From Candidatus Omnitrophota bacterium (GTDB lineage: Bacteria; Omnitrophota; Gorgyraeia; Gygaellales; Profunditerraquicolaceae), in the NCBI GenBank assembly GCA_018825985.1, contig JAHKAP010000035.1:1-62788 (forward strand): 62,788 nucleotides of DNA, written 5' to 3'. This document shows positions 1 to 60,674 of the stretch, piece by piece. Under the pieces are notes generated by a model that was given only the letters and a program-made list of their open reading frames with translations, was not told the DNA's origin and searched no databases. The position numbers and the translations under genes are program-made. Every line of letters begins with the position of its first letter. The first letter of the stretch is position 1.

Positions 1-55
1 ATTCATATTAGCCGGAGGGTCTGTAGCTACCTGCCTTTTTAGGACATTTAGAGAC

Positions 56-3000
56 TTGATCGATTACAGGATAAGGCAGGAGAAGGCGTTGACAATCGTT
101 TTTATTGCCCAAGAGGCAACTAACCTCTATCTGGATGAAGAGCCATTCTTAAGCCAAATCTGGCAATATCAGGGGTTCTTGGCGGGTAGAAAAATTGCCT
201 TCTGGGGGTATAATTTTATCTCGCGAACCATCTTCGGCCAATACGCCGGAGATCCCCGGATCATCTTATTGATAACCAAGGGGCCCAAGGATGTTTTGGA
301 ATTGATAAGCGCAGGCGGGGACATCCTTTCGATTGTCTGCAAGGACGTCCCTCGATTGGTTGCAAGGATGTCCCCGAACGGGAGTTCGCCGATAAAAGAT
401 TCATTTTTGGATAATACGATTAAAAGATTCTTAGAGAAGCTCCTTTCCGCCGCGCCTTATCCCGCAAAACTGAAAGAGGCAGAGAAGATATACCCGGATA
501 CCTTTGATGCCCGGGAGTTGGTAGATGTCCTGGGTTTATTAAAAGAGACGATCATAGACGAGATTGTCGTAGGTTTAGGCGGTGTATCCCGGGTGTATCT
601 TGATAAAAAAATCAAAGAATACCTTTTTATAGCCATAGGAGTCCTGCGCTATAGGTTAATGGATGCAGCAAAAAGAGGCCCGATAGACCTGAGGCACTAC
701 CAGGAGATAATCAGGTTAATGCATTTCTTTACCGAAGATAAAAGGATAGCTATAGATATCGAGACCGTAAAACCCCAGGTCTCCACAGCTTACCATAGAT
801 TAGCAAACCAGTATTTTATTACCGGAGATTTATCTCAGGCAGAGGAATACTACCGCCGGGCCCAGTACTTTAGCCCGGAAAAGGCGATGTCGAATCTTGT
901 CCGAGGGAACAGGTTCTTCCGCCAGGCAAAGTTTAAAGAGGCCTCCTGGGAGTATGTCCGGGCAAAAAACCTCGGAGTTATTTCTCCGGAGCTGCGTAAA
1001 ATAATGCGCAGTAATTTAGGTTATACCTTTGAGATGCTCGGAGAGAACTCTTTTGCGGTAGAAGAATATAGGAATGCTTTGGGTTTAGACCCGGAAAATT
1101 ACCCTCTGGGCTTAGGGATAGGCCTATCTCTTATAAGGCTGGGTCTTTATCCGGAGGTATTGGAAGATTTCAGCCGAAAGGGGCTCTTGGAGGCGGAGAA
1201 CTTTGCCGGCCTTCTTAATATGCCTGATTCGCTAACGTACTTGGAGATGGCGGACAAGACAATTCAGTTTTGTTCGGATAAGAAACTTCTCCCGGATAAG
1301 TTTTTAGCCGAATTAGAGGATTTGGTTGAGGCGCTGAGTATTGTGTCCAGGCAGGAATTCGAGGGCCTTTCCAGCAGCCCTATAAAATTAGCTGATGCCT
1401 TTGTCACTAAGTTGCCGTTATTATTTACTCCTGAAGGGGCAAACGACTTCAGGAAGATAAAAAAAGCCCTCGGCAACAATTCTTTTAACGTTTTGTTTGG
1501 CCCGGCTTTCGGAGCGGATGTTTTGCTGTCCTTGTACCTTTTTGACCCCAGCATTATCTTAGCCGTGGATATGTTGGCTTTTGGCGAGTCTAAAGAATTA
1601 GGCAAATCCGCTTTATCAGGTATTAGGGATGAATATATTAAAGAGAAGAGGTGTCCCGGAGGATTCTCTTGGACGAGTACTTTGAGTAGAAAGATAAAAG
1701 TATTAGGGATTCCTATTTTATTAGAGCTGGAACTTTTAGGCCTTAAGAGAAAAGATATAAACCTAGCGATTAAAGGCAGGAATACTGCCGAGATTACATT
1801 TGTTTTGCCTAAGAATATCGACTCCGCAGGCAGGTTAAGGAAGGTCGTTTTCTTCGGCGGACTGGATGTTAATGATTTAGGTTCTTATCCCAAAACCCTT
1901 AAGTTGCTTATGAATAGGATTGATGCGTGTATGTATAAGGCTTTTTCGCCTTTCTATATAGAGGCAAAGACTTGGGATTTCATACTTTCCGGGTTCCGTA
2001 AAAGCGGGGTGATAGTTTCAGACAGGGGAATATTCCTAACCAGGAAGGGGAGAAAAAGAGTGTCGCATACTTACCACACGGAGATCAGCTTTGGGCATAA
2101 TCATTTTTATTCCTGGGGTAGAGGTGGCACATTTATTTACGAAGTGAAAGCTAAGACCTCTAGCTCTCCGGTCGGAGCCTTAATGCGCACTTATTCAGAG
2201 TCAACCCACAAACAATCCAGCAGCCCTATCGGTTCATATGACAAAGAAAAGATATTCTTGGATCCTTTATCTGTTGGCTTCCCAGACGAGAAATTCCTTG
2301 TTAATGGAAATTTATTTGATTTTTCCAGACGTCTTATCCTTCACCTGAATTTTTATAATCATAATTCAGGAAATTTGGGAGGTATTGAATTACTCTTACC
2401 CGGACACCTTATTAATTATATCTATGTGGAGCCGAAAGTTAGAGGCCAGGGACTGGCGAGAGCCTTCTTAATTACCCTATTTAAGATTATTGAGGATGGG
2501 TGGATAGAAGAAAATCTAAAAATGGGCATGTTTAATATGTATGTGCGGCATCCCTTACTAGCAAAAACGTTGTTAAGGCTCGGCTATGGCCATACTCCCG
2601 TGATAGGGGCAGAGGGTTTTAGCACGGAATTGATTTTAGGCAAGACGCTGGAGAATAAGAAAGTTCCGGTATATATACCCGATCCGGTAAAGAGAAAAGA
2701 TTTCATTATTTATGTCTCTGCAGCCGGAGAAGACTATAACATGCTTTTTATAGAGGATAAGCTTATTCGGGGAGATGCGGTAAGGATATATGAAACATAC
2801 TATCTTAAAGACGAGGATACATTCCGCAAACAAGTTGACAATTCTAGCATTAGAATAAAGGAAACTGTTTCCAAATCAATCGGGACAGTGGGTAATGGCG
2901 CCAGCTCGGCGGTGAGCCCGGGAGGCTCATATTATGCCGAACTATTTAAAACATTCGTGCGTACTCATCAGTGGACAGATATCATAGAATTAAGGCGGCA

Positions 3001-6000
3001 ATTGACCAGTCAGTTCCGGTTCCCCAATGAGTTTGTCCATCATTTACAGGATCATAAAGGCAAAATACAGTTAGCTGTTCTGAAAGTACATAACTTTAAG
3101 CAGCAATTCATTATGCGGGGTTACAATTTAGGGGTGGGGCATAAGTTGGGAGCTATTGCCGCGGCTAAGGTCATCCGCTACCAGCTCAGGATTGCCCTAC
3201 AGGAACAAATTAAGAGGATGGTGGATAACGGTCTAATGCCGTCTGAAACACAGTGCAATATCTATAACGCGGGGCCGAAATTCCGTATTATTTTCCGTTT
3301 CAGTCAGGATATGACAAATGAAAAGGCGGCGCAGGAGATACTGCTGGGTGTCTTGGCAGAACATTCGGGCTTTAAGGAAAAGGTTATTAGCGGAGTGAAA
3401 GACAGATCAGGCATTGCAGAATTGCTGCATCATTTTTCAACCAAAAACTTTTATATGTACGGCGGCGTATCAAGCCTGCACCAGGCAGGGATAAGCGATT
3501 TAGATACAGCTTTGTCTGTAGCCGACAGGATACAACAGGAGGCCGGCAAGGCCGCAAATATTGTCCATATCAGGTATTGCGCTGACTATAAACAACTGTT
3601 AAGCCGGCTTAAGGAAATCGGGGATTTTACTATCAGCCTCTATAAGATGCATAAGCGTGAGGTGATACTGCGCAGGTTGCATCAGGTTATTCTCTTTCAA
3701 GAGAAGGACGCGGTGGAAACATTATCTGAGGAGATTCAGGAGGAAATAATCGCGTTAGAGGCCTTGGGTTTAGATAAGGAATTGGTTGATTTTGATCCTG
3801 TGTCAGATCAATTTAGGCACCGGGTGAGTTTTTTCGAACACGGGATTGAAAACTATGAACAGTGGTATCGTTTTCTGGATACGACGCGCATAGAACAAAG
3901 CCCGGAGTTATTATTCTTGCGGGGAGTGCTCTACACTAGCGAGCTCAGCGGGGCTAAAGACAATATTTTATTCGGCTATTCCAATTTCAGGAGATTCATC
4001 AACTATATCTTGCGGCACAAAGTGCCCTATTCATTTCATGCGGTCTTCAGGATGGGGGTAGAGTCTGATGAGTTTGTTGCTCTATTGTGGAATGCGCAAG
4101 AAGAAAAGTTGGCTTTATTTTGCTTTGATACCTCCAATACCGGGGATATCGGTACATTCCACGGCCGCCGGACCGCTAACGAAATGCTGGATAAAATGGG
4201 TTTGTTGCTCAAGCGTGTCTTTTCCCAAGCGGTGCAGAAAGGATCTTTTAAGGCATGGCTTATGCATATCCGCCAGACACTGCCCGGGGTATTGGATAAG
4301 GAGTTTGAGGATGTTTCCTATCGTCTGACTCCCGTGATATATCCCTTGCTGCAGGATGAGGTATTACTTAAGGATGTGCGCAGGCAGGTTCTTTCTATGC
4401 TGGATCGGGATAGCGGCGCGCTCTATAAGGTGAGATTTACCGTCCCGGAGAAAACAGGCAACAGGAACTATAGACCGCTGATACGGGATATATCCGGCAA
4501 AGAGATAGCTTATTCTGAATCCGATCCGCCATTCTTTTTTGAAAGTGTGGGCGGTTATCTTAAGGTGGTATCCAACAAATTCAGCATCCTGGCAGTTTCC
4601 TTGGCCGAATATAATATATTGAAGAAGAAACAATTGTTAGTAGTTGATGGCGGCCGGGATTATGACGTGGCGGTGTGGGTAAAGCCTGCCTTTTCAGGAG
4701 GATGCCTTACCTTGAGCACGAGGCATATTCGGGATTTCAGCAGAGACTTCGGTGATTTGCAATGGCCGGCGGATTACCGCGCAGAATACGTTAAGCGCAG
4801 GAGAATAATCCCCTACCAGATGCTGCACTATGGCGCATTGCCCGCTAAGAAAATTATAGGCACAGAGAGGGTTGATATCAGCAGGATTTCCCGCAAACTC
4901 CCTTTATTTAAAGAGAAGCCGATTCAGGCAGGCGTAGCCCTGGCTATTCTCTCTCGGATCGAGGCCGAACAGAAAGAGATAGGAGGAGACGGTAATGTTG
5001 CTTCTTCGCCGATGGAACAGGAAATGCCGCTTCTCGCAGGAGACATGCACAAAGAGGGATTATGTGTTATGAGTCGGGCGCATCATGTAATCGATTTTGT
5101 CTGTTTGCCCGAAGATTTAATCAGAAAGTTTGCTGCCGGAGGCAATGCTATGGCGCAGATTTATCTGGAGGCGCGCAATATCGGCAGGGATTTTTCGGAT
5201 GATGATTGGCTGGACGCGTCTAAGTGGGAGGTCTTTGCTATGTTGGGAAAGATGGAGCGCGCTTTTCTTTCCCAAAGGGACAAACTAAATGCGATGCAGT
5301 TTAGAGAAAGGCTTTATTCTCTATACGGAATATGCGTGGTGGGGATGAACCTGATGGATATCTGGCATTGTGGCCCGGTTTCCGTGGGTTTGGCCCGGTC
5401 ATTGAGGGGTTTAGGGTATGACCCGCGCCTGTTCCGTAATAATAAGTACGCTTCGGCCATGCTTGAAAAGTTCATCCATCCGGAGAGAATAAGCAAGGAT
5501 GATAGATTTGACCACATCTTCGTAGTTGATAATGCAAACGGAGAAGGCGGAATTTACATTGATTTCAGGGCCATGCAATTCCTGGAAGAGATAAAGGGGG
5601 TTAGGGATTTATTGCGGGAAACCGCAGTTTTTCTAAAGAATCATCAACAATCCAGCAGCCCGGTTGAGAAAGCCGGGCCGAGCCCTTACTTTCAAGACAG
5701 CGCAAAGGCTTCCCAAAATGGTGTTGTGTTTCGGCGCGTAACTCCCGAGGCATTCTCCGGCACAACCCTGATCTTCGTCCACGGTAAGGGAGTGCTTGAT
5801 GTCTATAATTATTTCACGCGCCTGCTTAGGCCATCTCTGCGCAGGCAATATCTGCCCCATTACGACCTTGTCTGCTGGCAGGAAGGATCCCCCTTGAAAC
5901 AGTTTTTAGGCCTGGGTTTTGAGATGGTTTCTTTCCCTCACGCTACTCTCAATCCCAAGAACATACTTATGAACGTCGAAGAAATAAGCAGGAAGATTTT

Positions 6001-18000: not shown

Positions 18001-21000
18001 TATAATAGATGCTTTATCTAAAGGGAAACAGCCTCCTTTATTTGAAGTACAGTTTCATCCAAGCGCTATTTGCAATAATAGATGTCTTGGGTGTATCGGA
18101 ACAGCCATTAACGCTATCATTAAAAGCGATGGACGTAACTGCAATGCCCTATTGCTTTCCAGGGAACAGTTTTCTAAGGCTTTCGCAGATATAAGAGAAT
18201 ATAATGCTTATATAACGAGGATTCCCGGACAGCGTCCTGTCGAGCGCCTGATATTTTCCGGACTTACCGGAGAGCCAACCTGTAACAGATATGCTATTGA
18301 TGCGTTGAGAGAAGCCGCCGAATTAGGATTTCATAATACCTTATTAACAAATGGAAGGCTTCTAAATAATGATCGAAAGAAGGAAATCGTAATTACTTCT
18401 GTTAATGATATCATTGTTAGTTTATATGGAGCTACGGCTAAGGCCTATGGATTTGTCGCAGGGGTAGATGAAAGTGCCTTTAGGCCGCTTATAGAAAATA
18501 TAAGAGGATTGGTTCAAATAAGGAATATTAGAAAGCTTGGCAGCAAAATAGGAATCGCGTTTTTAATTGAGCGCGGAAATTATAAAGGAGTCATAGCCGC
18601 TACAAAGATAGCCTATGAATTAGGAGTAGATTTTATAAGATTTAGGGCTATTATGCAGGCTAATGAAAGGATGTTAGCCCCGGAACAGTGGAAGGAGTGC
18701 GAAGAAGGCCTGTCTTTCGCTAGAGAAAAGTATGAAACTGATAGCTTTAAGGTTATGGTTACCTCTGATGATAAGAAAACTTCGCCTAATGCGGAGAAAA
18801 GCTGCTTAAACTGCGTTGCTTGCCAAATCATGCCAGTGATAGGGCCTGATTTCAAGGTTTACCCTTGCCCTCACTTAAGTTATTTCGGCGCGGAAGATTA
18901 TGGTTCTCTCGAAAATTCTTCATTAATTGAGATATTGACGGGAGAACGAAGCAAACGGTTGATTGAAAGGATTGTTTCTAACCCAACTGATATTGTTTGT
19001 TCGCCAAGAAGGAGCAGGATAAATGAGCTTTTTAAGACAATAAAAAGCGGTTCCTCCAGCTCACCGGTGGGTTCGACTTTTGGTTCTCGGTTTCTGGTTC
19101 TCACAAGCACCGAGCACCGAGCACCGAGCACCGAAGGCGCCGCCTCGCCGTTTGGCCAGCTATCAGCTATTATCCGTCAGCTATCGGCTAAATATAGCTC
19201 CAATAGTTTACCGGCTCAGCCAACCGGATCCGGTTTATTTGCGGAAATATTTTTGCACCGGCCCAATGATAAAAGCTCTGAATTTGAAGGTAAATATTTT
19301 TTGATCCATACGAATGATTTACCATTCTTCAGGAACGAAGTTAGAAACTTGCCTGTAGTGGAAGGTATTGTTACTCACTTATCTGTGGGTATTGGCAGAG
19401 CCCGGAAGAACGGCCTTAAGTACGCAGGCGTCGCTATTCCAGCCCCGGGGACTAAATACGGCTTTGTTATAAAAGGCAATAGATGCGCCTCCAGCTCGCC
19501 GGCCGCTTTGCCGCTGGCGCACCGTGCACAGTTCTATCATAAATCATCTTCCGCTATAGAGTTAGACAGAAACGATCTAAGTAGTAGGCTGCAGGCTCAG
19601 GCTGTCTCCCGCCTTGAGGGCGGGTTTAAACAGAACAATTGGTATGCCATAAAGTTTAATTCCAGCGAAAAGCTGATTATTGATAAGGCCCAGTCCAGAG
19701 TAGAAAAGTTGTTAAGTCCTTATTATAGAAAACAGCTGGTTCGATGGAGGCCCGTTGATCCTCATGAATGGGGGCTTATTTTTATTACTCCTATAACAGC
19801 GTGGTTTTCGCCTTTTGTTTATCTTACCTATAAAGGTAGATTCAAGAGCGATCTTGATAACCAGGATCATTTTATACGGATTAGAATAGGCATGAGCGAG
19901 CAGGATCTTTTCCGCGTAACGGCTCATGAAAAAATACATAGCTTGATCCATTCGGGGGCGTTAGAAATAGATGAAGACAAGGAGATGGTATTGGCGGAAG
20001 CCATTGCCCTTATCGCTTTATTCCAGGAATATGGGATTATAGAACCGGATTATTTTAATTTAAGCGGAACTCCTCCCATGATCGTGGCCGCCATAAAAGA
20101 AGGGGAGTTCTTGGTAAACAATGGGGAGTTTAGTATTATCGAAATACGACAGAGAGCAGCGTTGCGTGAAGAGTATTATTATAAGGCAAGTTATTGTTTT
20201 ATTGCAAGGATGGTGGGGCGACTGACCCATGTAACGTTTAATTCAGAACCCTACTTGACCTATATTTATCAACGTATGCTCACCGGAGCCGTCCTAAAGG
20301 CGATAAGGACTAAAACACAGGAAGGTAATGTGTATCAGGAAGCTGTGTCTTTACTGATAAGTATGAGTACCGGTCTTCAGGATTTTTTTGAATCGGATTA
20401 TTCCATTCGCCGCAAACTGTCGGCCCAAAGAAGTTCAGGTGTTGATTTTAAGTTTTCTGTTTCTGCGGATGCGGACCCGCAGGGTCAAGAGCCCGGACAG
20501 ACAGTTTCCTCTTCGCCGGTAATTATTAAGGAACAGACCCAGTGTCCCGAACAACTCGGAAACAGTTTCCCCTTTGGGGCGGTTGTGGGGATGTTGTTAA
20601 GGGTGGCTCATTCCTCTTCGCCGGTTAATGATATTAACCAGGAGAGCTTGTACAATACCGTCAATTTAATATTGGAGTTAGGGGAACCAAAGAATTATCC
20701 GCTGGCATTAGTATTATTAGATGAGCTTTTTAAATATGATCCCCAGGATATAAGAATAAAGGATATTTATCTTGATCTTGCCGGCCATAAAAGAGGATAT
20801 GTTGAAAATGCCATTGATAAACTTGAAGAAATTATCAATACCCCGGATTTCTTTTCTCCGGTAGCCCATTATATACGGGCTATACTGAATTTTGATAAAG
20901 GCAATTTTAAAGAGTGCATAGCTGATTTGGATGAAGCGGTTCGGCTGTCCAAGGGTGTAGAAAATCGGACCAGGTATATTTTTGAGAAAATCCGCTATCT

Positions 21001-21763
21001 GGATAAAATGTCGGATAAAAATAAGTTTTATGTAGGGAGTATTTCTTTAAGCCGGGAGATAGAAAATTCTGTAGAAGAACTATTAAAGTTTAAAGGATGG
21101 CTGGCGAGTCATAAAAGACGGGATTGGGTGGTTTTAAGCCGCATAATTTCAGCTGAGGCCTTAAATAGGCAAGGCAGATATTCCGAGGCTAAAGATGAAA
21201 TAGACACAGCTCTTTCTATGGAATACACCTCTGGGATAATGAAGAGCGATCCGGACACGAGCAGGTATTTTGCCCGAGGGTTCCATCTAAAGGCCAGCCT
21301 GGCCTTGTTTTTGGTTGAGGAATTATTATTCAAAGCGGAGTTAAAATGGGTCCGCGGAACAGTTTTCCAACCGGAAGATTTAGAAAACATTGAATATTTG
21401 TTTGAGCAGGCAGAAAATGATATCAAAATGGCTGAGATGGCGGATAAAAGTTATGTTGACGGAGTTAATCATTTGATGATGGAAGAATTATCTCTTAAGG
21501 CAGAGATAATTAAAAGAGATAGGTATGAACAGATGCCTTTGAGAGATAGCGCGCGGGTTTTGCATGGCGCCATAGCTTTAGCCTTGGGTAAAGAAAACAG
21601 GCGCAGGTTTAATCTCAAGGAATTAAAAAATGTTGATTCTGGAATAAATATTGCGCCGGTAGATATAGAGGGCCTTAAGGTATTAGGGATTATCGCTTCT
21701 ATAAATGACATGCGCGAAACATTTTATTACAGCGGGATGAGATTTATTGTTATTAGGCCGTAG
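56..21763 (+). CDS. giant mosaic multi-enzyme protein, >=7235 aa (5' end possibly outside the window)
   Basis: Single uninterrupted ORF of 21.7 kb ending at TAG 21761-21763. The same frame has no stop from nt 2, so the TTG at 56 is only the first in-window start candidate. It contains catalytic signatures of more than 12 unrelated enzyme families plus TM blocks, separated by about 30 copies of [A/S]-S-S-P-[V/I/A]. Confidence 0.85.
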   Translation: MIDYRIRQEKALTIVFIAQEATNLYLDEEPFLSQIWQYQGFLAGRKIAFWGYNFISRTIFGQYAGDPRIILLITKGPKDVLELISAGGDILSIVCKDVPRLVARMSPNGSSPIKDSFLDNTIKRFLEKLLSAAPYPAKLKEAEKIYPDTFDARELVDVLGLLKETIIDEIVVGLGGVSRVYLDKKIKEYLFIAIGVLRYRLMDAAKRGPIDLRHYQEIIRLMHFFTEDKRIAIDIETVKPQVSTAYHRLANQYFITGDLSQAEEYYRRAQYFSPEKAMSNLVRGNRFFRQAKFKEASWEYVRAKNLGVISPELRKIMRSNLGYTFEMLGENSFAVEEYRNALGLDPENYPLGLGIGLSLIRLGLYPEVLEDFSRKGLLEAENFAGLLNMPDSLTYLEMADKTIQFCSDKKLLPDKFLAELEDLVEALSIVSRQEFEGLSSSPIKLADAFVTKLPLLFTPEGANDFRKIKKALGNNSFNVLFGPAFGADVLLSLYLFDPSIILAVDMLAFGESKELGKSALSGIRDEYIKEKRCPGGFSWTSTLSRKIKVLGIPILLELELLGLKRKDINLAIKGRNTAEITFVLPKNIDSAGRLRKVVFFGGLDVNDLGSYPKTLKLLMNRIDACMYKAFSPFYIEAKTWDFILSGFRKSGVIVSDRGIFLTRKGRKRVSHTYHTEISFGHNHFYSWGRGGTFIYEVKAKTSSSPVGALMRTYSESTHKQSSSPIGSYDKEKIFLDPLSVGFPDEKFLVNGNLFDFSRRLILHLNFYNHNSGNLGGIELLLPGHLINYIYVEPKVRGQGLARAFLITLFKIIEDGWIEENLKMGMFNMYVRHPLLAKTLLRLGYGHTPVIGAEGFSTELILGKTLENKKVPVYIPDPVKRKDFIIYVSAAGEDYNMLFIEDKLIRGDAVRIYETYYLKDEDTFRKQVDNSSIRIKETVSKSIGTVGNGASSAVSPGGSYYAELFKTFVRTHQWTDIIELRRQLTSQFRFPNEFVHHLQDHKGKIQLAVLKVHNFKQQFIMRGYNLGVGHKLGAIAAAKVIRYQLRIALQEQIKRMVDNGLMPSETQCNIYNAGPKFRIIFRFSQDMTNEKAAQEILLGVLAEHSGFKEKVISGVKDRSGIAELLHHFSTKNFYMYGGVSSLHQAGISDLDTALSVADRIQQEAGKAANIVHIRYCADYKQLLSRLKEIGDFTISLYKMHKREVILRRLHQVILFQEKDAVETLSEEIQEEIIALEALGLDKELVDFDPVSDQFRHRVSFFEHGIENYEQWYRFLDTTRIEQSPELLFLRGVLYTSELSGAKDNILFGYSNFRRFINYILRHKVPYSFHAVFRMGVESDEFVALLWNAQEEKLALFCFDTSNTGDIGTFHGRRTANEMLDKMGLLLKRVFSQAVQKGSFKAWLMHIRQTLPGVLDKEFEDVSYRLTPVIYPLLQDEVLLKDVRRQVLSMLDRDSGALYKVRFTVPEKTGNRNYRPLIRDISGKEIAYSESDPPFFFESVGGYLKVVSNKFSILAVSLAEYNILKKKQLLVVDGGRDYDVAVWVKPAFSGGCLTLSTRHIRDFSRDFGDLQWPADYRAEYVKRRRIIPYQMLHYGALPAKKIIGTERVDISRISRKLPLFKEKPIQAGVALAILSRIEAEQKEIGGDGNVASSPMEQEMPLLAGDMHKEGLCVMSRAHHVIDFVCLPEDLIRKFAAGGNAMAQIYLEARNIGRDFSDDDWLDASKWEVFAMLGKMERAFLSQRDKLNAMQFRERLYSLYGICVVGMNLMDIWHCGPVSVGLARSLRGLGYDPRLFRNNKYASAMLEKFIHPERISKDDRFDHIFVVDNANGEGGIYIDFRAMQFLEEIKGVRDLLRETAVFLKNHQQSSSPVEKAGPSPYFQDSAKASQNGVVFRRVTPEAFSGTTLIFVHGKGVLDVYNYFTRLLRPSLRRQYLPHYDLVCWQEGSPLKQFLGLGFEMVSFPHATLNPKNILMNVEEISRKIFIPAIERIFQTQPFLKGGKIVVVGYSFGAILASYNSGFLRNRGVSGLALINPVFSFNKGVSEWMRLQTVLFWDILSRIYLRDYRKGIHRQLIRGTPENKALMEKINAEIKQWEENEVILVSTFTKEGRPVARKNKGWIEDMLDRLATPETDGVTELAGFDAGAKNIPVIKIEGVDHSGALWGQDKRVLSIVSNFCLNRSPSISPIVFNASSEQRNFIAALTQKEPGFSHLPKAEIIKRSRIRGYSNFMQVYETEDCPGLVFKIPNPSDGLILYPQEAACMQIIADRMISREVRIGGWRLVKIVPFVPVAYVDGIIVQQKAIPVYKQGRTESWLSITGRITQKLEKNRIRYRFPDWLKYENGDIGWVGKEDGSGDVEPAILDNGLFFPLEFVEALRQRAEEAVDILPLEEITQVIGRLGYYSASFLKICYEKQTYDWMAPSRHDLEFAGRYWKEIFGGTTYKEAIAKVIGTMKTKYASSPAGRDSPSIKKPGLRNAVKILGEEASDCFIRCRVLIEKTAGHLRSLLPKKQYSDKYFKPNDENLSTLVVIRPLFGGRSGVNAAHRAVNFVDGNLIVTDEHHRILEYLTGGDSVLSFDYDLDNLRQYSNKKTTVIAPADQTNWVVWAKFKGCKVWLCIPSWRIKGIDSLLDDPEKDFERIFSNIDEIPTITGDVVVTFCLDYFANRFMPQGVEGPDYERDEMRPLFDEIEGQIRSIANVLKEREIVVKFVHLSISSQYAYEEYKDFVIQELKEHIVPLLGLYSSSSSGPTIRDTLEISREDDPRHNRHSSSSPILESGSKSDKLTDKEKIRNLLGAVRRRGDSRNMVYYHVKMAVFALLLAGLNQFLFGWNPISILLCAGLIVSIEGPLFFFGILLMRVRLYGSNETLNVITMCREECVTYNLNSAIMRFHKDYLLSPLALILFSEYLGLIEQDFLFWSTSVMLINAGVANTVSELIDTKLYWKDIYRELFGSVSARSSVGGKGQGRSSSPAAASSPTIQGRHKRKSPSLQFNSLAEQLRPVKAKNEARELPIQVEQIAGSLKDRNLWGTQNKPIIVVFDAHGTLLEPTWKFEIADVYHDITGRDIGEGLVWVEQNAMNENIDTIAQRLSIASEISKEDIIRLLDERMRHYHLNYIPKARPYALEFIKALNILGIPLFIRTGSDTDLTISQLKINGLLDFIPQEHIVGSERNKGLRSSDTIEALHRQFQNHRIVYFDDWVGAGKKLVEIGGVFFGLPQGPTVESNEFQGNREALIADGANYILSGWQDYEEIIKLISVDKEAQNRDEAIPVAEGAAKELYPIIPAARPNKISLFIDISRDSDITYHYMENDPLAFGINGKANYDDLVLKLQKIVTIPDARLITPQKYIDTRLEPSIRNLLNQLLAGQKRYTRFMDVIVSWDAAIDKNVWTTNRDTIYFLDIVDKEGVFEDDTVERLLEIGVGGGQISATSAKRFVNLKSLSVSDISIYALRCSYKNILPYMKNGLDLHFYWGKGIRTINEYFDVIFINPPYIRIPPWRKQDNKDPYRGTGLIREILEIGVQKLNRHNPNVRIFINVSSLAEKDLIRYVDELDGEFILSSLGPRLNLPFKHAQFLIQKSGNYLDVPLKVQAVDEKWRQWLIEEGGLEYRKDVEDHMEPYWHTLQMYMIKPARASSSPAAKAGAKNISVLNRYAPKDKFRVRIYSGKEDDFWSFQESLRQWLKYKYGKFRFDTVKDDSGRIIKTPLLRKFITGIVNGNTYSNYRYISICNDNTLLAMQGIELHPDKNNPLRMRKFVAAKTVISPFIRQDKKYDTEKLLARLFSAVIGFSKNNGFGGKIWGITVSTAILRHLEGCGAVIIPFKLISGIRSYIYILEPEAAERYLESRHYASSPAQFLQSLFISLEPLGLNRLIEVKNKHGFEAAFFARIRKKAGKEEKIFVFRYRASENSGFAGAYKIRDFACYEIATGQDQEIFAGGLTYVIPPLGSQTAYTWVRQQYLSFLRYYPGMQEHAFFVAEPYRRQYFLGNGLLALAVQYMKRCDRLSVYNYAYWTPSSMAVLLKLLPDMTPWLSISHFKNERSLETLRVIREKGKSIILSSWLKNAFSPIALNPLADKQLYASSLRRSSSPAQKPASSPAVNAIYDASQPYPRWHLLESIISTGKQGDIIRERGAAYCIYVSIFDALKKKGALIHADIVLSKERAREIVLFASEKAEIALQDDAYRQKNIIAVILRSEYDMTSIEFNYSWVFSDIGLPSLPTDIHPSWQFNKIIFSVGRGEISALGGDGGILHSVNLGDIRGTLSGDGAERSALRPSESEGVLRDAGSRIEGPIVRSSSPAASPLGRSSSPIRRRKISKSPFIKERPKFLLIIYKSIVGSLATIAFLISLDAFFGQYFFEAVIVAAVFTITAALYKKRKDRIQRERRTFYIRKWPNNTNRKDNASSPVADLSSSSFNFPVDFSHAAGEWIPVSTGEMVFKATVGSILIDGKNVLLSQPLCVCKKILSNPGFALCRNIVAVLLDEYFRKKNEYTIAHIPIPGGWFKEGYFYFFVRGTDGFSWEVMTLEGRENIQMQEWNICKGLFWKFGIDIGYDIVNAEDALSKNIIIEGYDIEQLYLTCSLSKYWTRIDFGYESLPVRLNRLQEAIREDKASLRKVLGWRFKLLECAAYGIEREFTPQQKTLFEKLFGRYQLEELEQYIYSHNIVSSPVTGDTFELSRKDVPRLAAKASLKILGEAVDIIESFADHRFKLYLTGSLAREIIRGSKDFKVTDVDLALGLSGRLERYLEALASIQTQLNLEFADNVHLAAVRYGRLYKINDELKIKDTGEILGEGIYDRASAENRRKLVLIQIDRNFKVFLQRMIGERLKINSALEVQAVFPMHIRPFVLLCEIASAIKETRGIDIYITILNEIKEEVLKVSQALGDIKEANRDKAAWPVMEAVEPYRSYAHGVFYVSQTHYFRCEFFSPEGEPVHPDNDISSLLQQFLSNTIIGRNGIKIDVSFPADEPDKEITEAQKAEIFALIGYLSPIRENTSDSNNSSSPIPENNFINTEKVGEKLNQYQFDHHFEMLQRWMHMYPVICGDSVHTICKFLSETFHHDFSTKEENSFPYLEFAFVVFTGDFAARRLWDIVRSMVYAGNDKDLRLHLCLKIYFSETNSYLIDGAANVYDKTYDRKIAFLPYEQALNELGYKEKGLFSDPLKLLQFLKIVSVSSPVTFPTAKGTKFHNIIEPGRKGFWQAQDPVKLVCADCVGTVFFTRERNIYLALTDPQAYKQDILNQWEGYGCFDASRIFDKNTKALISHVMRRSIPAVSLKAYLISQGLIEQNIQIDPAPEGINEFVENMILYVWPDKALKVAYDIPRIFRSPYIVVNRYWLDFGFTLLRISSSPITETVSKSIGTVGNGASSPIATRVIKPGVPVGTSVYRITKPEQLRQFIGEGVAKVKEYWDHAVAYKITGNRERLSAYAFIYTYIRGVKVNGLYQSVGGTRHKRYPNEVDAIIDGLELSRDMTYKNALAGIPLGGAKAVLMNKDKEILKIFALTLEALGVMLTGQDVGISEEDVNYMAGFGPHVICGTPDRALGGEPTAPYTSLGLYHATIEMIKVAHERRILSFHSPNLKDYGFGLQGLGAVGSRVLEHLLNAGARVYATDEKSFVMASIAREHCEAISSGQLILVRPQEIYKVKGAQIFLPCALGGVLNNVTIPWLSDAGCKMIISGANNDLDKPEEYYSHLILEKGMIHMPGFGANSGGVLAALCKVGGYDLIEKVTQGIPARVRQIVEISLDERRPSYVVAKEIAKKIVRHSKIDWQAREQAASPVTRYSADEAVKRWIYLWQEIKSGQKLGFKCKDMPLCLNIALNIIKPLDSSEPQQSIRLTVVDLGHKRNKVQAWLTYHYDKQIRLLTLAEIKGSRRVKGLGAVLVLEAISRHREAEQVVFSRPKKKGRILIKKLEYVGIICSVETIVQQGRLWRILGSHFADNKRAYIIWVRLTNLTTATSFVSSSPAASPVENENVEYLSVESKIMEGRQDIIDALSKGKQPPLFEVQFHPSAICNNRCLGCIGTAINAIIKSDGRNCNALLLSREQFSKAFADIREYNAYITRIPGQRPVERLIFSGLTGEPTCNRYAIDALREAAELGFHNTLLTNGRLLNNDRKKEIVITSVNDIIVSLYGATAKAYGFVAGVDESAFRPLIENIRGLVQIRNIRKLGSKIGIAFLIERGNYKGVIAATKIAYELGVDFIRFRAIMQANERMLAPEQWKECEEGLSFAREKYETDSFKVMVTSDDKKTSPNAEKSCLNCVACQIMPVIGPDFKVYPCPHLSYFGAEDYGSLENSSLIEILTGERSKRLIERIVSNPTDIVCSPRRSRINELFKTIKSGSSSSPVGSTFGSRFLVLTSTEHRAPSTEGAASPFGQLSAIIRQLSAKYSSNSLPAQPTGSGLFAEIFLHRPNDKSSEFEGKYFLIHTNDLPFFRNEVRNLPVVEGIVTHLSVGIGRARKNGLKYAGVAIPAPGTKYGFVIKGNRCASSSPAALPLAHRAQFYHKSSSAIELDRNDLSSRLQAQAVSRLEGGFKQNNWYAIKFNSSEKLIIDKAQSRVEKLLSPYYRKQLVRWRPVDPHEWGLIFITPITAWFSPFVYLTYKGRFKSDLDNQDHFIRIRIGMSEQDLFRVTAHEKIHSLIHSGALEIDEDKEMVLAEAIALIALFQEYGIIEPDYFNLSGTPPMIVAAIKEGEFLVNNGEFSIIEIRQRAALREEYYYKASYCFIARMVGRLTHVTFNSEPYLTYIYQRMLTGAVLKAIRTKTQEGNVYQEAVSLLISMSTGLQDFFESDYSIRRKLSAQRSSGVDFKFSVSADADPQGQEPGQTVSSSPVIIKEQTQCPEQLGNSFPFGAVVGMLLRVAHSSSPVNDINQESLYNTVNLILELGEPKNYPLALVLLDELFKYDPQDIRIKDIYLDLAGHKRGYVENAIDKLEEIINTPDFFSPVAHYIRAILNFDKGNFKECIADLDEAVRLSKGVENRTRYIFEKIRYLDKMSDKNKFYVGSISLSREIENSVEELLKFKGWLASHKRRDWVVLSRIISAEALNRQGRYSEAKDEIDTALSMEYTSGIMKSDPDTSRYFARGFHLKASLALFLVEELLFKAELKWVRGTVFQPEDLENIEYLFEQAENDIKMAEMADKSYVDGVNHLMMEELSLKAEIIKRDRYEQMPLRDSARVLHGAIALALGKENRRRFNLKELKNVDSGINIAPVDIEGLKVLGIIASINDMRETFYYSGMRFIVIRP
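785..1110 (+). other. TPR-like repeat module (giant ORF)
   Basis: AYHRLANQYFITGDLSQAEEYYRRAQYFSPE ... AVEEYRNALGLDPENYP shows 34-aa helical repeat patterning typical of TPR. Confidence 0.5.
2270..2600 (+). other. GNAT-type acetyltransferase-like module (giant ORF)
   Basis: LINYIYVEPKVRGQGLARAFLITLF matches GNAT motif A (R-G-x-G-x-A), followed by LLRLGY. The module is bounded by SSSPI (nt 2216) and by the repeat plus ASS motif (nt 2860-2911). Confidence 0.55.
2860..2911 (+). repeat. GGAAAC-T-GTTTCC / GGGACAGTGGG repeat, copy 1 (in frame in giant ORF; translated ETVSKSIGTVGNGASS)
   Basis: ggaaactgtttccaaatcaatcgggacagtgggtaatggcgccagctcggcgg differs at only about 3 of 52 nt from the copy at 16090-16141. 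Confidence 0.9.
2990..3400 (+). other. possible degenerate GGDEF-like (nucleotidyl-cyclase palm) module (giant ORF)
   Basis: LAVLKVHNFKQQFIMRGYNLGVGHKLGAIAAAKV ... IYNAGPKFRIIFRF follows the GGDEF layout (DxFKxxND..GH..GD ... RxGGDEF), but the signature is AGPKF. By-eye call only. Confidence 0.3.
5300..5570 (+). other. transglutaminase-like cysteine peptidase core (giant ORF)
   Basis: MDIWHCGPVSVGLARSLRGLGYDPRL ... FDHIFVVDNANGEGGIYIDF has Cys, His and Asp in the order and spacing of transglutaminase-like cores. Confidence 0.4.
5750..6545 (+). other. alpha/beta-hydrolase module (giant ORF)
   Basis: LIFVHGKG, VVVGYSFGAILA (G-x-S-x-G nucleophile elbow, nt 6068-6082) and IEGVDHSGAL (His). The module starts right after SSSPV at nt 5651. 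Confidence 0.6.
8465..8870 (+). other. multi-pass transmembrane module (giant ORF)
   Basis: Hydrophobic stretches VKMAVFALLLAGLNQFLFGW, ISILLCAGLIVSIEGPLFFFGILLM, LLSPLALILFSEYLGLI and FLFWSTSVMLINAGVA, bounded by SSSSPI (8354) and SSSPAAASSP (8951). Confidence 0.6.
9150..9815 (+). other. HAD-superfamily hydrolase-like module (giant ORF)
   Basis: IIVVFDAHGTLLEP (motif I variant D-x-H), FIRTGSDTD and VYFDDWVGAGKK. Confidence 0.5.
10130..10700 (+). other. SAM-dependent methyltransferase module, NPPY type (HemK/PrmC or N6-adenine-like) (giant ORF)
   Basis: LEIGVGGGQISA (SAM motif I, nt ~10298-10330) and DVIFINPPYI (NPPY motif, nt 10508-10522). Confidence 0.65.
13018..13160 (+). other. two-helix transmembrane module (giant ORF)
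   Basis: FLLIIYKSIVGSLATIAFLISL and FFEAVIVAAVFTITAALY flanked by basic residues. The module lies between SSSPI (12956) and ASSPV (13244). Confidence 0.6.
14050..14450 (+). other. Pol-beta-type nucleotidyltransferase module (giant ORF)
   Basis: KLYLTGSLAREIIRGSKDFKVTDVDLALGL matches the G-S-x(n)-D-x-D signature. Confidence 0.55.
16090..16141 (+). repeat. GGAAAC-T-GTTTCC / GGGACAGTGGG repeat, copy 2 (in frame; ETVSKSIGTVGNGASSP)
   Basis: ggaaactgtttccaagtcaatcgggacagtgggtaatggggccagctcgccg, flanked by SSSPI (16073) and ASSPI (16130). Confidence 0.9.
16200..17330 (+). other. Glu/Leu/Phe/Val (ELFV) amino-acid dehydrogenase module (giant ORF)
   Basis: GGTRHKRYPNEVDAIIDGLELSRDMTYKNALAGIPLGGAKAVL (ELFV catalytic Lys/Gly-rich motif) and the Rossmann stretch GLQGLGAVGSRVLEHLLNAGARVYATD. 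Bounded by ASSPI (16130) and AASPV (17360). Confidence 0.75.
17560..17760 (+). other. possible second GNAT-like module (giant ORF)
   Basis: LLTLAEIKGSRRVKGLGAVLVLEAISRH resembles GNAT motif A. Weak by-eye call. Confidence 0.3.
17990..19040 (+). other. radical SAM module with C-terminal Cys-rich (SPASM-like) region (giant ORF)
   Basis: FHPSAICNNRCLGCIG contains CxxxCxxC (nt 18071-18094), GLTGEPT, and the C-terminal CLNCVACQIMPVIGPDFKVYPCPH. Bounded by SSSPAASPV (17915) and SSSSPV (19052). Confidence 0.7.
19082..19191 (+). repeat. blocks of heptanucleotide tandem repeats inside giant ORF
   Basis: (GGTTCTC/GGTTTCT)x3 at 19082-19102, (GCACCGA)x4 at 19107-19134, and (CAGCTAT)-type x5 at 19157-19191. 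The AASP linker at 19142 lies between blocks. Confidence 0.9.
19510..20500 (+). other. HExxH zinc-metallopeptidase-like module (giant ORF)
   Basis: RVTAHEKIHSLIH carries HEKIH at nt 19925-19939. Bounded by ASSSPA (19487) and SSSPV (20507). Confidence 0.45.
20538..20572 (-). repeat. same repeat, copy 3, inverted orientation, still in frame in giant ORF (translated QCPEQLGNSFPF)
   Basis: cccagtgtcccgaacaactcggaaacagtttcccc is the reverse complement of copy 5 with about 2 mismatches. It is flanked by identical 14-mers tcctcttcgccggt at 20507 and 20612. Confidence 0.85.
20630..21760 (+). other. C-terminal TPR-like helical repeat module (giant ORF)
   Basis: ALVLLDELFKYDPQDIRIKDIYLDLAG, AHYIRAILNFDKGNFKECIADLDEAVRLS and AEALNRQGRYSEAKDEIDTALSME. 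Confidence 0.5.
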
Positions 21764-60591: not shown

Positions 60592-60640
60592 AACTAGGGG
60601 ACGGTTCTGTTTATTTGGTAATTCTGAGACTGAATAATTA

Positions 60641-60659: not shown

Positions 60660-60674
60660 AAACTATAGTAAATA

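What the first reader, a model, noticed from the sequence alone, without database searches (positions are those of the whole stretch)
56..21763. A 21.7-kb single ORF that concatenates more than 12 unrelated enzymes
The ORF has no internal stop over 7235 codons. It is not built from Ig/cadherin/RHS-type repeats, and I see no NRPS/PKS motifs (no C/A/T or KS/AT/ACP signatures).

Instead, successive segments each look like a complete stand-alone protein of a different family:
- GNAT (RGQGLA)
- an alpha/beta hydrolase (GYSFG)
- HAD
- an NPPY methyltransferase
- a Pol-beta nucleotidyltransferase (GS..DVD)
- an ELFV amino-acid dehydrogenase (MTYKNALAGIPLGGAKAV)
- a radical SAM with a Cys-rich tail (CNNRCLGC)
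- an HExxH peptidase
- a transglutaminase-like Cys peptidase
- TPR blocks at both ends
- two embedded TM blocks

A chain in which whole enzymes replace genes of an operon is very unusual for bacteria. Giant genes have been noted in some uncultivated lineages, but I cannot place this one taxonomically without a search.
Basis: partly seen in the sequence, partly recalled or inferred. Interest (0 to 1): 0.92.

Follow-up and report, generated by a model that had tools for sequence, protein, structure and literature searches.

The report
Omnitrophota giant gene of enzyme cassettes
This is a real 21.7-kb gene from a Candidatus Omnitrophota bacterium that strings at least 22 unrelated enzyme-sized modules into one membrane-anchored protein; the kind of gene is already described, but its modules are separated by a sharply conserved five-residue junction (Ser-Ser-Ser-Pro-Val/Ile/Ala) that could show where, or whether, such giants are cut up.

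Summary
The ORF is real: 56..21763 (+), 7,235 codons, no stop. It stays open to base 2 of a contig-length window, so the 5' end is uncertain. A second MAG carries a 6,016-aa piece and five other assemblies cover the 3' 3-8.5 kb. The host is a Candidatus Omnitrophota bacterium, and the gene sits among housekeeping genes.

HMMs support the HemK-like methyltransferase, ELFV dehydrogenase, radical SAM/SPASM and TPR. HAD and the alpha/beta hydrolase are probable, GNAT is weak, and the nucleotidyltransferase rests on a motif. The HExxH and Cys-peptidase calls are unconfirmed. One unannotated module folds confidently into a kinase-like domain.

Multi-enzyme giant proteins of Omnitrophota are already described, so this is a new member of a known kind.

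It occurs 25-30 times (0.33 expected) and never in the neighbouring genes. It recurs in distant Omnitrophota giants, where it flanks homologous modules placed in a different order. Small stand-alone homologues lack it. One relative uses S-L-D-N-G-G-[K/R] instead. Synonymous codons at the junction are also biased (TCC-AGC-TCG-CCG) in five organisms.

My best reading is a polyprotein-like cassette array with junctions as processing sites. This is inferred, not shown.

The parts
56..21763 (+). Giant ORF, 7,235 codons, stop TAG; frame open upstream to base 2 (contig edge)
74..91 (+). Possible true start: AGGAG, 6 nt, then TTG (codon 12)
   Evidence: inference only
56..382 (+). Module aa 1-109, unknown, possibly incomplete at its N-terminus
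   Evidence: ends at junction aa 110
383..1372 (+). TPR module aa 110-439
   Evidence: TPR_1/2/8 above the Pfam cut-off, aa 244-275
1373..2161 (+). Module aa 440-702, no family match
2219..5002 (+). aa 722-1649: GNAT-like start (RGQGLA; weak, E 0.044) plus unknown domains; decayed junction GASSAVSP near aa 950
5003..5653 (+). aa 1650-1866: Cys-His-Asp (papain/transglutaminase-like) motif module; fold unconfirmed
   Evidence: aligns with junction-bounded modules of P0011, P0031 and P0091; AF2 pLDDT 38.7; no Pfam match
5654..7426 (+). aa 1867-2457: alpha/beta-hydrolase-like (GYSFG) plus an unknown C-terminal half
   Evidence: Abhydrolase_6 E 5.8e-4, below cut-off
7427..8359 (+). Module aa 2458-2768, no family match
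8360..8953 (+). aa 2769-2966: transmembrane block 1 (about 4 hydrophobic helices)
   Evidence: hydropathy; helix count read from the sequence by eye
8972..10948 (+). aa 2973-3631: HAD hydrolase plus HemK/PrmC-like NPPY methyltransferase
   Evidence: Hydrolase E 4e-5; MTS above cut-off; NCBIfam HemK-type models E 2e-9
10949..11590 (+). Module aa 3632-3845, no family match
11591..12298 (+). Module aa 3846-4081, unknown; homologues found only inside other large proteins
12323..12925 (+). Module aa 4090-4290, unknown; homologues in P0091, P0078 and others
12959..13246 (+). aa 4302-4397: two-helix transmembrane hairpin
13247..14032 (+). aa 4398-4659: atypical protein-kinase-like (RIO/Bud32-like) domain belonging to a family absent from Pfam
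   Evidence: AF2 pLDDT 92.9; the top 50 Foldseek PDB hits listed are all kinase-like folds, best E 4.8e-3; no Pfam match for 21 members
14033..15037 (+). aa 4660-4994: Pol-beta-type nucleotidyltransferase-like module plus module '14b'; decayed junction (INSALE) near aa 4823
15038..15553 (+). Module aa 4995-5166, unknown
15554..16075 (+). Module aa 5167-5340, unknown; homologue in P0031 bounded by the same junctions
16133..17359 (+). aa 5360-5768: ELFV (Leu/Phe/Trp-type) amino-acid dehydrogenase, near full length
   Evidence: ELFV_dehydrog_N and ELFV_dehydrog above cut-off; ScyB model E 5e-42, positions 33-337 of 346
17360..17917 (+). Module aa 5769-5954, unknown (GNAT-like by eye)
   Evidence: no HMM match
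17930..19057 (+). aa 5959-6334: radical SAM (CNNRCLGC) plus SPASM
   Evidence: Radical_SAM E 1.4e-5; TIGR04317 E 1.3e-19; PqqE E 2e-11
19106..19134 (+). Perfect heptanucleotide repeat (AGCACCG)x4 in the linker between junctions aa 6335 and 6363; 3 copies in GCA_043820065.1 shift the frame
19142..19492 (+). Module aa 6363-6479, unknown
19493..20509 (+). aa 6480-6818: module with an HEKIH motif; peptidase assignment unconfirmed
   Evidence: no Pfam, NCBIfam or PDB match
20615..21760 (+). aa 6854-7235: C-terminal TPR module
   Evidence: TPR_2 E 3e-5, below cut-off
380..394 (+). Junction GSSPI (aa 110)
1370..1384 (+). Junction SSSPI (aa 440)
2159..2230 (+). Junction doublet SSSPV / SSSPI (aa 703, 722)
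5000..5014 (+). Junction ASSPM (aa 1650)
5651..5665 (+). Junction SSSPV (aa 1867)
7424..7438 (+). Junction ASSPA (aa 2458)
8357..8371 (+). Junction SSSPI (aa 2769)
8951..8983 (+). Junction doublet SSSPA / ASSPT (aa 2967, 2973)
10946..10960 (+). Junction SSSPA (aa 3632)
11588..11602 (+). Junction ASSPA (aa 3846)
12296..12334 (+). Junction doublet SSSPA / ASSPA (aa 4082, 4090)
12923..12970 (+). Junction doublet SSSPA / SSSPI (aa 4291, 4302)
13244..13258 (+). Junction ASSPV (aa 4398)
14030..14044 (+). Junction VSSPV (aa 4660)
15035..15049 (+). Junction SSSPI (aa 4995)
15551..15565 (+). Junction VSSPV (aa 5167)
16073..16144 (+). Junction doublet SSSPI / ASSPI (aa 5341, 5360); includes a 57-nt linker repeat shared with 2855-2911
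17357..17371 (+). Junction variant AASPV (aa 5769)
17915..17941 (+). Junction doublet SSSPA / AASPV (aa 5955, 5959)
19055..19153 (+). Junction doublet SSSPV / AASPF (aa 6335, 6363) enclosing the heptanucleotide repeat
19490..19504 (+). Junction SSSPA (aa 6480)
20507..20626 (+). Junction doublet SSSPV / SSSPV (aa 6819, 6854)

Best explanation
Shown:
- This is a genuine chromosomal giant gene of a Candidatus Omnitrophota bacterium.
- It belongs to the recently catalogued 'multi-enzyme' class of Omnitrophota giant proteins.
- It encodes at least 22 autonomous modules. They include a HemK-like methyltransferase, an ELFV dehydrogenase, a radical SAM/SPASM enzyme, a HAD-like and an alpha/beta-hydrolase-like domain, a RIO-like kinase fold, a nucleotidyltransferase-like domain, TPR blocks and many unannotated domains.
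- The modules are separated by a five-residue junction, [S/A/V]-S-S-P-[V/I/L/A].
- Modules bounded by this junction behave as cassettes. Homologous cassettes occur in other Omnitrophota giants in a different order, flanked by the same junction. Some also occur as stand-alone genes without it.

Inferred:
- Two hydrophobic blocks, each apparently with an even number of helices, anchor the chain in the inner membrane. The cofactor-dependent enzymes (SAM, NAD(P), Fe-S) would then face the cytoplasm.
- The junction is a recognition site at which the precursor is processed into separate or tethered enzymes. In other words, the gene is a bacterial polyprotein. A candidate protease is the Cys-His-Asp module at aa 1650-1866, which is shared with other giants.
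- The conserved in-frame junction DNA also offers microhomology that would allow cassettes to be gained, lost or swapped without breaking the frame.
For: Identity and reality:
- ORF confirmed.
- A 6,016-aa called gene in GCA_043820065.1 covers about window 1.2-19.3 kb. Five further assemblies cover the 3' 3-8.5 kb at 99.7-99.8% identity without stops.
- Polymorphisms are 33 nonsynonymous to 21 synonymous in the giant and 5 to 11 in its neighbours, with no nonsense changes.
- Cluster mates at >=90% identity are named Candidatus Omnitrophota. Neighbours are kds/lpt genes, clpP, purA, infB, nusA and ruvB.

Junction:
- SSP[AVI] occurs 25 times against 0.33 expected, and 0 times in the other 12,338 aa of the window.
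- A scoring matrix built only from other proteins finds 27 sites.
- In 29 relatives of >=700 aa there are 83 sites against 3.4 expected. In 92 relatives of <=400 aa there are 0.
- In the 117-instance logo, only five positions are conserved.

Cassettes:
- Shared modules begin and end at junctions, and their order differs between proteins. P0113 has the nucleotidyltransferase at 297 and ELFV at 3395. P0131 has radical SAM at 973 and the nucleotidyltransferase at 1784. P0031 has the kinase-like module at 140 and module 16 at 4029.
- Stand-alone kinase-like homologues lack the junction.
- In the AF2 model of aa 4398-4660 (pLDDT 92.9), confidence drops only at the two junction ends.

Processing idea:
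- A second junction type, S-[L/F]-D-N-G-G-[K/R/...], occurs 22 times in P0150 and its fragment P0091. It ends in a Gly-Gly pair, like the double-glycine sites cut by C39 peptidases. By my reading of the sequence, that protein ends in a sigma-70-like domain.
- A C...H...D module, itself bounded by junctions, aligns across the window protein, P0011, P0031 and P0091.

DNA layer:
- Codons at the junction are biased to TCC-AGC-TCG-CCG in the window and in four other organisms (p from 1e-3 to 1e-6 per position).
- The top direct-repeat families inside the gene are the junctions themselves: 29-nt variants at 86-90% identity and a 57-nt linker repeat at 91%.
Against: - No direct evidence of cleavage exists. 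No proteomic, mass or N-terminal data were available.
- The candidate protease module has no Pfam or PDB match, and its AF2 model failed.
- Cleavage next to proline is unusual for most peptidases.
- Some domain boundaries carry no junction. HAD and the methyltransferase share one interval. The junctions near aa 950 and 4823 have decayed.
- Some related giants have no recognisable junction: L008 (6,888 aa open), P0006 and P0036.
- Polymorphism in the giant is denser and more often nonsynonymous than in its neighbours, so constraint is relaxed.
- The membrane topology rests on hydropathy alone, and the N-terminus is unknown.
Confidence: 0.5

Rival explanations
1. The protein is an uncleaved chain of enzymes tethered to the membrane. 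The junction is a structural hinge and/or a translation pause site that lets each module fold before the next one emerges from the ribosome.
For: - Junctions fall in the low-confidence ends of a well-folded domain.
- TCG, the rarest Ser codon (6-11% background), is enriched 3-5-fold just before a Pro codon.
- The three Ser positions favour codons read by three different tRNA-Ser species (my inference).
- Most large bacterial multidomain proteins stay intact (general knowledge).
- About half of catalogued Omnitrophota giants are TM-only proteins read as membrane-anchored cytoplasmic enzymes.
Against: - Ordinary linkers conserve composition, not an exact pentapeptide, across modules that are only ~30% identical.
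- A second, unrelated exact motif ending in Gly-Gly in a homologous mosaic looks like a recognition site.
- TCC and AGC at the first two positions are common codons, so rarity does not explain them.
Confidence: 0.28
2. The junction is mainly a DNA-level joint. A conserved in-frame 12-15-nt sequence (TCCAGCTCGCCGG) mediates recombination that inserts, deletes and swaps cassettes, and the peptide it encodes is merely tolerated.
For: - The same synonymous codons are used in five organisms with 38-43% GC.
- The junctions are the main direct repeats in the gene, up to 29-57 nt at 86-91% identity.
- Module order is shuffled between giants, with breakpoints at junctions.
- Junction doublets are frequent and could be scars of cassette loss.
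Against: - Ser is kept through switches between the AGY and TCN codon families at the same position, which needs selection on the amino acid.
- P0074 keeps S-S-S-[S/P]-[VILA].
- No recombinase is linked to the locus.
- The exact 15-mer is too common by chance to trace in public collections.
- This reading is compatible with the best explanation rather than exclusive of it.
Confidence: 0.12
3. The junction is a site of post-translational modification, for example Ser-Pro phosphorylation by the embedded RIO-like kinase module, or O-glycosylation. The modification would regulate the array.
For: - There is an S-P core with an invariant Ser-Ser.
- A kinase-like module is present in this giant and several others.
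Against: - The kinase-like assignment is weak (best Foldseek E 4.8e-3, TM about 0.3).
- The SLDNGG junction type has no Ser-Pro.
- General protein O-glycosylation in bacteria is, as far as I know, periplasmic, whereas the modules look cytoplasmic (inference).
Confidence: 0.07
4. The ORF is an artefact: a mis-assembled chimera, a decaying pseudogene, or an operon fused by sequencing errors.
For: - One MAG (GCA_043820065.1) has a 7-bp deletion that splits the ORF.
- The 5'-most ~1.2 kb has no independent support.
- Constraint is relaxed.
Against: - Six independent assemblies are colinear, and five of them keep the frame across the repeat.
- The frameshift is a copy-number change in a heptanucleotide repeat, not random damage.
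- There is no stop in 7,235 codons.
- Catalytic motifs are intact by reading the sequence: NPPY, CX3CX2C, GGAK.
- The same architecture is seen in many Omnitrophota.
Confidence: 0.03

Closest known systems
Omnitrophota giant proteins, class 1 'multi-enzyme metabolic clusters' (Nielsen & Lui 2026, bioRxiv 10.64898/2026.06.07.730766; also West-Roberts et al. 2023, bioRxiv 10.1101/2023.11.21.568195; Seymour et al. 2023, PMC10066038)
   Same: - Same phylum.
- A single ORF over 20 kb.
- Many distinct enzyme families with none dominating.
- The same recurrent content: methyltransferase, GNAT, HAD, radical SAM.
- Hydrophobic blocks without adhesin, dockerin or SecA domains, matching the 'TM-only' architecture read there as membrane-anchored cytoplasmic enzymes.
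   Different: - At 7,235 aa it is below that catalogue's 10,000-aa threshold.
- None of the three papers mentions a linker. One mentions the word motif once, in a reference-list title. None describes a junction motif, cassette boundaries or cleavage points.
- No C39, S8 or SecA domain is detectable here.
Viral and eukaryotic polyproteins with conserved protease sites, such as picornavirus 3C sites and coronavirus PLpro LXGG sites (named from general knowledge)
   Same: Unrelated functional units sit in one reading frame, separated by a short, exact, repeated peptide. Related polyproteins use different site 'dialects'.
   Different: Cleavage is not demonstrated here and no protease is identified. 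The host is a cellular chromosome, and the modules are metabolic or regulatory enzymes.
Double-glycine leader processing by C39 peptidase domains (general knowledge; C39 domains in Omnitrophota giants are reported by West-Roberts 2023)
   Same: The SLDNGG[K/R] junction of the relative P0150/P0091 ends in Gly-Gly. A Cys...His...Asp module is shared by both junction types.
   Different: The window's junction is SSSP[V/I/A], not GG. No PF03412 match was found in the window protein or in the aligned Cys modules.
NRPS/PKS megasynthases and eukaryotic multifunctional enzymes such as AROM, CAD and FAS (general knowledge)
   Same: Very long polypeptides that carry several catalytic domains.
   Different: No C/A/T or KS/AT/ACP domains are present. 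The modules are not steps of one recognisable pathway, they have no carrier domains, and their order is not conserved among relatives.

Membership tests
Omnitrophota giant ORFs (Seymour 2023; West-Roberts 2023) | Encoded in a genome of phylum Omnitrophota | tested here: met
   Cluster mates (>=90% identity) of the window's PurA and MsbA are named 'MAG... [Candidatus Omnitrophota bacterium]'. Relatives L007 and L008 and five named giants are Omnitrophota.
Omnitrophota giant ORFs (Seymour 2023; West-Roberts 2023) | Single ORF longer than 20 kb (Seymour), about 7,000 aa | tested here: met
   21,708 nt, 7,235 codons, possibly longer.
Class 1 'multi-enzyme metabolic cluster' giants (Nielsen & Lui 2026) | Many distinct Pfam families tile the polypeptide, with none dominating by copy number | tested here: met
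   TPR, GNAT, Abhydrolase, HAD, MTS, ELFV (two domains), Radical_SAM and SPASM; the enzyme families occur once each and only TPR recurs, at both ends. No internal paralogy.
Class 1 'multi-enzyme metabolic cluster' giants (Nielsen & Lui 2026) | Length of at least 10,000 aa (catalogue threshold) | tested here: not met
   7,235 aa as assembled. The 5' end may be missing, so the result could change.
Class 1 'multi-enzyme metabolic cluster' giants (Nielsen & Lui 2026) | TM helices without a signal peptide (the 'TM-only' architecture) | tested here: inconclusive
   Two hydrophobic blocks are present. A signal peptide cannot be judged because the N-terminus is uncertain, and no dedicated topology predictor was available.
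Archaeovorin / dockerin-type giants (West-Roberts 2023) | SecA DEAD-like helicase, dockerin or C39/S8 peptidase domains | tested here: not met
   None at E<=0.1 in Pfam or NCBIfam.
NRPS/PKS megasynthases | Condensation/adenylation/thiolation or KS/AT/ACP domains | tested here: not met
   No such Pfam family at E<=0.1.
Repeat adhesins (Ig, cadherin, RHS) | Tandem arrays of one repeat family | tested here: not met
   No such families. No significant similarity between modules.
Proteolytically processed polyprotein | Short conserved sites between functional units | tested here: met
   27-30 junctions, strongly non-random, located between modules.
Proteolytically processed polyprotein | A cognate protease, in cis or in trans | tested here: inconclusive
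   A Cys-His-Asp module is shared by four giants, but the fold is unconfirmed. The HExxH module has no homologue.
Proteolytically processed polyprotein | Mature products smaller than the ORF | not testable with these tools
   Needs proteomics or biochemistry.
ELFV amino-acid dehydrogenases (module aa 5360-5768) | Both ELFV domains above the Pfam cut-offs, with the catalytic GGAK lysine | tested here: met
   38.3 and 38.8 bits against cut-offs of 25.3 and 23.4. ScyB model E 5e-42. The GGAK motif was read in the sequence.
Radical SAM/SPASM (module aa 5959-6334) | CX3CX2C cluster motif plus a SPASM Cys-rich tail | tested here: met
   CNNRCLGC is present. TIGR04317 E 1.3e-19 and PqqE E 2e-11. The Pfam Radical_SAM score of 25.8 bits is just under the 29.5 cut-off.
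Protein-kinase-like fold (module aa 4398-4659) | Bilobal kinase fold with a catalytic D..KN loop and a DFG-like motif | tested here: inconclusive
   Confident model. The top 50 Foldseek hits listed are all kinase-like, but weak (E>=4.8e-3, TM 0.24-0.35). D150, K160, N161, D186 and F-G are conserved in 80 sequences.

The most novel reading that the evidence does not exclude
The junction pentapeptide and its variants (S-S-S-[S/P]-[VILA] and S-L-D-N-G-G-[K/R]) would be the missing 'cleavage points' of Omnitrophota giant proteins. On this reading the giants are true cellular polyproteins, cut by an embedded papain-like module into dozens of enzymes. The same in-frame junction, conserved down to its codons, would also act as a recombination joint, making giant genes cassette arrays that shuffle whole enzymes within and between genomes.
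Probability: 0.3. Interest if true: 0.85.

Novelty: new member of a known kind. Interest (0 to 1): 0.6.

Why it matters
Giant genes can take up a noticeable share of the small Omnitrophota genomes, yet nobody knows whether their products act as one chain or are cut up. West-Roberts et al. state that missing cleavage-point information blocks even structure prediction.

A short, exact, countable junction gives three practical handles:
- It offers rational cut points for annotating and folding these proteins module by module. That worked here: pLDDT 92.9 for an unannotated module.
- It yields a directly testable prediction for proteomics, namely peptides that start or end at the junction.
- It provides a way to trace how whole enzymes are shuffled between giant genes.

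If the junction turns out to be only a hinge, the locus is an ordinary member of a known class.

Tried and rejected
- The search for homologous proteins: the whole ORF was too long and a 4,398-aa piece timed out. Three counted searches (aa 5167-6480, aa 1650-1867, N-terminus) returned nothing useful and did not recover the near-identical fragment P0001. All relatives therefore come from one exhaustive search with aa 3846-4995, so the other modules were not surveyed.\n- Genome scan: found three relatives but not the window's own species.\n- Metagenome scans: nothing found, either with the kinase alignment or with a 35-nt 5' probe meant to extend the gene upstream. Alignments A1 and A3 were too divergent to seed scans.\n- AF2 of the Cys-His-Asp module with a 4-row alignment failed at pLDDT 38.7.

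Full report
**Observation.** The ORF is there as described: 56..21763 on the + strand, 7,235 codons, with one stop, the terminal TAG. Neighbouring genes end in TAA, TAG and TGA (17/7/3), so no recoding is involved. One correction is needed. The frame has no stop between base 2 and base 55, and the window is an entire 62,788-nt contig. The gene may therefore run off the 5' end. A plausible start exists at codon 12 (AGGAG, 6 nt, TTG at 89-91), and SD-like sequences precede about half of the neighbouring genes. I could not settle this point.

**Origin and context.** Proteins at >=90% identity to the window's PurA and MsbA are named by NCBI 'MAG... [Candidatus Omnitrophota bacterium]'. The rest of the contig is a same-strand housekeeping region:
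- PilZ, CheR, MsbA, KdsB/A/D/C and LptC/A/B;
- trigger factor, ClpP and SerA;
- PurA, a GH57 branching enzyme, UppS, CdsA, Dxr, RseP and IspG;
- NusA, IF-2, ScpA and RuvB.

The giant gene is not in an obvious mobile island.

**Independent support.**
- The adjacent PilZ protein is found on six other assemblies that are 99.7-99.8% identical in DNA.
- In GCA_043820065.1 the called gene is 6,016 aa and runs to that contig's end. This corresponds to roughly window 1.2-19.3 kb.
- The four Logan assemblies and GCA_018827565.1 cover the last 3-8.5 kb without interruption.
- The only frame-breaking difference is a 7-bp deletion in GCA_043820065.1. It is the loss of one unit of a perfect (AGCACCG)x4 repeat at 19106-19134, inside a linker.
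- Polymorphisms across these assemblies are 33 nonsynonymous to 21 synonymous in the giant. In an equal length of neighbouring genes they are 5 to 11. None creates a stop. The gene is therefore under relaxed but real constraint.

**Module inventory.**

| Support | Modules |
|---|---|
| Above Pfam cut-offs | TPR (N-terminal), MTS methyltransferase, both ELFV domains |
| NCBIfam | HemK/PrmC-type models; near-full-length Trp/Leu/Phe-dehydrogenase match (E 5e-42); radical SAM/SPASM maturase models (E 1e-19) |
| Below cut-off but plausible | HAD, Abhydrolase_6, C-terminal TPR |
| Weak | GNAT (E 0.044) |
| Motif and homologue alignment only | Nucleotidyltransferase; its G and two D residues are invariant in five homologous modules |
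| Unconfirmed | HExxH module and Cys-His-Asp module: no Pfam, NCBIfam or PDB sequence match; the AF2 model of the latter failed |
| Hydropathy | Two hydrophobic blocks at aa ~2807-2850 and 4323-4363 |

No NRPS, PKS, Ig, cadherin, RHS, dockerin, SecA or C39 family appears, and the modules are not paralogous to each other.

**The junction.** Reading the translation shows a recurring [S/A]-S-S-P-[V/I/A].
- SSP[AVI] occurs 25 times against 0.33 expected from composition. The maximum in 500 shuffles was 3. It is absent from the other 12,338 aa encoded in the window.
- A scoring matrix built only from other organisms' proteins picks out 27 sites in the giant.
- None of the sites falls inside an HMM-defined domain. 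The ELFV interval (409 aa) and the radical-SAM interval (376 aa) are each filled by one near-full-length enzyme.
- Eight junctions are doublets, 4-35 residues apart.

**Relatives.** One exhaustive profile-free search with aa 3846-4995 gave 137 hits.
- Each module has its own set of homologues. The kinase-like module and module 14b also occur as stand-alone ~250-300-aa proteins. All the modules recur inside other proteins of 800-6,400 aa.
- Those large proteins carry the same junction. P0031 and P0113 each have 14 SSP[AVI] sites (18 and 20 with the broader pattern used), and P0131 has 7 (13).
- Overall there are 83 sites against 3.4 expected in 29 relatives of >=700 aa. There are none in 92 relatives of <=400 aa.
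- A logo of 117 instances shows conservation of just five positions.
- Homologous modules start and end at junctions in every protein, but their order differs.
- Stand-alone kinase-like proteins lack the junction at both ends.
- Named relatives are Candidatus Omnitrophota, with one labelled Aminicenantes.
- Their other modules include an epimerase, NUDIX, Fic and PAS.

**Other junction variants.** P0074 uses S-S-S-[S/P]-[VILA]. P0091 and its 7,587-aa cluster mate P0150 use a different exact motif, S-[L/F]-D-N-G-G-[K/R/...], 22 times at module-like spacing. By my reading of the sequence, P0091 ends in a sigma-70-like region. Some giants have no recognisable junction: L008 (6,888 aa open), P0006 and P0036.

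**Structure.** With an 80-row alignment, AF2 folds aa 4398-4660 with mean pLDDT 92.9 and pTM 0.91. Confidence falls only in the first ~10 and last ~5-13 residues, which are the junctions. The top 50 Foldseek PDB matches listed are all protein-kinase-like folds (RIO1, RIO2, PRPK, PI3K, APH), but they are weak: best E 4.8e-3, TM 0.24-0.35. The family has no Pfam model. This shows that junction-to-junction intervals are practical units for annotation.

**A nucleotide layer.**
- At the junction the window prefers TCC-AGC-TCG-CCG. TCG takes 14 of 30 positions against an 11% background, TCC takes 12 of 17 Ser against 17%, and CCG takes 21 of 30 against 36%.
- The same preference holds in 30 junctions from four other organisms with 38-41% GC.
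- The strongest direct repeats inside the gene are junction DNA: 29-nt variants at 86-90% identity and a 57-nt linker repeat at 91%.
- Even so, Ser is maintained across the AGY and TCN codon families, so the peptide itself is selected. I cannot explain the codon preference. Possible causes are pausing, use of three different tRNA-Ser species, or recombination and gene conversion between junctions.

**Mechanism.**
- *Shown:* a cassette architecture with an exact junction that is conserved across deep divergence.
- *Inferred:* the junction is a recognition site. I favour proteolytic processing, a polyprotein, for four reasons. First, exact inter-unit motifs are what protease sites look like. Second, a second junction type ends in Gly-Gly, like the sites cut by C39 peptidases that West-Roberts et al. 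report as common in these giants. Third, a junction-bounded Cys...His...Asp module aligns across four giants of both junction types. Fourth, a terminal sigma-like domain would seem to need release.
- *Against:* there are no product data, the protease is unverified, the site contains proline, and some boundaries lack a junction.

My rough weights are 0.5 for processing, 0.28 for an uncleaved hinge or pause site, 0.12 for a mainly DNA-level recombination joint (compatible with either), 0.07 for a modification site and 0.03 for an artefact.

**Comparison and novelty.** Giant ORFs over 20 kb are common in Omnitrophota (PMC10066038). West-Roberts et al. 2023 describe them and raise cleavage as an open question. 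Nielsen & Lui 2026 define a 'multi-enzyme metabolic cluster' class with the same domain repertoire and a TM-only architecture. The finding as reported is therefore a new member of a known kind. None of these papers mentions a linker or junction motif, and two text searches for the peptide found nothing relevant. This absence applies only to the held library.

**Limits.**
- Only one segment of the protein was searched exhaustively.
- The taxonomy rests on NCBI names of cluster mates.
- The topology rests on hydropathy.
- The junction's function is inferred throughout.

Noticed in passing
window 19106-19134 (and L001 ~7281): A perfect heptanucleotide repeat, (AGCACCG)x4, lies in the linker between two junctions. 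GCA_043820065.1 has 3 copies, which shifts the frame and splits the gene into a 6,016-aa ORF and an 836-aa ORF. This could be slipped-strand switching of the C-terminal ~870 aa, or an assembly error.
   Followed up: partly
window 2855-2911 and 16085-16141: A 57-nt linker segment (ETVSKSIGTVGNGASS) is repeated at 91% nucleotide identity, 13 kb apart within the gene. The upstream copy ends in a decayed junction (SSAVSP).
   Followed up: partly
window 1-91: The giant's frame is open to the contig edge. A tandem SD-like duplication (CAGGAGAAGG x2.1 at 67-87) precedes a TTG at 89-91 that may be the real start.
   Followed up: partly
window 58225-62788: This is a low-GC stretch (33-37% against ~44%). 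It holds a 788-aa ORF with only faint nucleoside-deoxyribosyltransferase-like and AAA matches. It also holds a 203-aa NYN protein that matches the PADLOC candidate defence family HEC-09 over its full length (E 1e-57). It is probably a small defence islet.
   Followed up: partly
By eye it ends in a sigma-70-like domain and also carries GT2, ELFV-like and M23-like modules.
   Followed up: partly
P0023, P0075, P0095, P0110, P0118, P0120 (stand-alone homologues of window aa 4823-4995): These ~270-aa proteins have signal-peptide-like N-termini, a conserved L-[S/A]-P-x-L-x-I just before the domain, and a conserved C-terminal tail (TPDYK ... SAI). This suggests a secreted family with its own sorting or processing signals.
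   Followed up: no
window 13247-14032 and alignment A6: The kinase-like module belongs to a sizeable family (about 100 representatives at 50% clustering) of ~250-aa proteins with no Pfam model. H92, G111, G144 and N161 are invariant, and there is a WKRIDFG motif.
   Followed up: partly
window 32000-32875: The trigger factor is only 291 aa. It matches the N- and C-terminal Pfam domains, but no PPIase domain lies between them.
   Followed up: no
window 36386-38146: A 586-aa ORF between serA and an HMGL-like synthase gene has no Pfam or PADLOC match.
   Followed up: no
window 13244-13258 vs L001: In GCA_043820065.1 the junction at aa 4398 reads A-G-S-P-V instead of A-S-S-P-V. There are three substitutions within two codons, an unusual local cluster of changes.
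   Followed up: no
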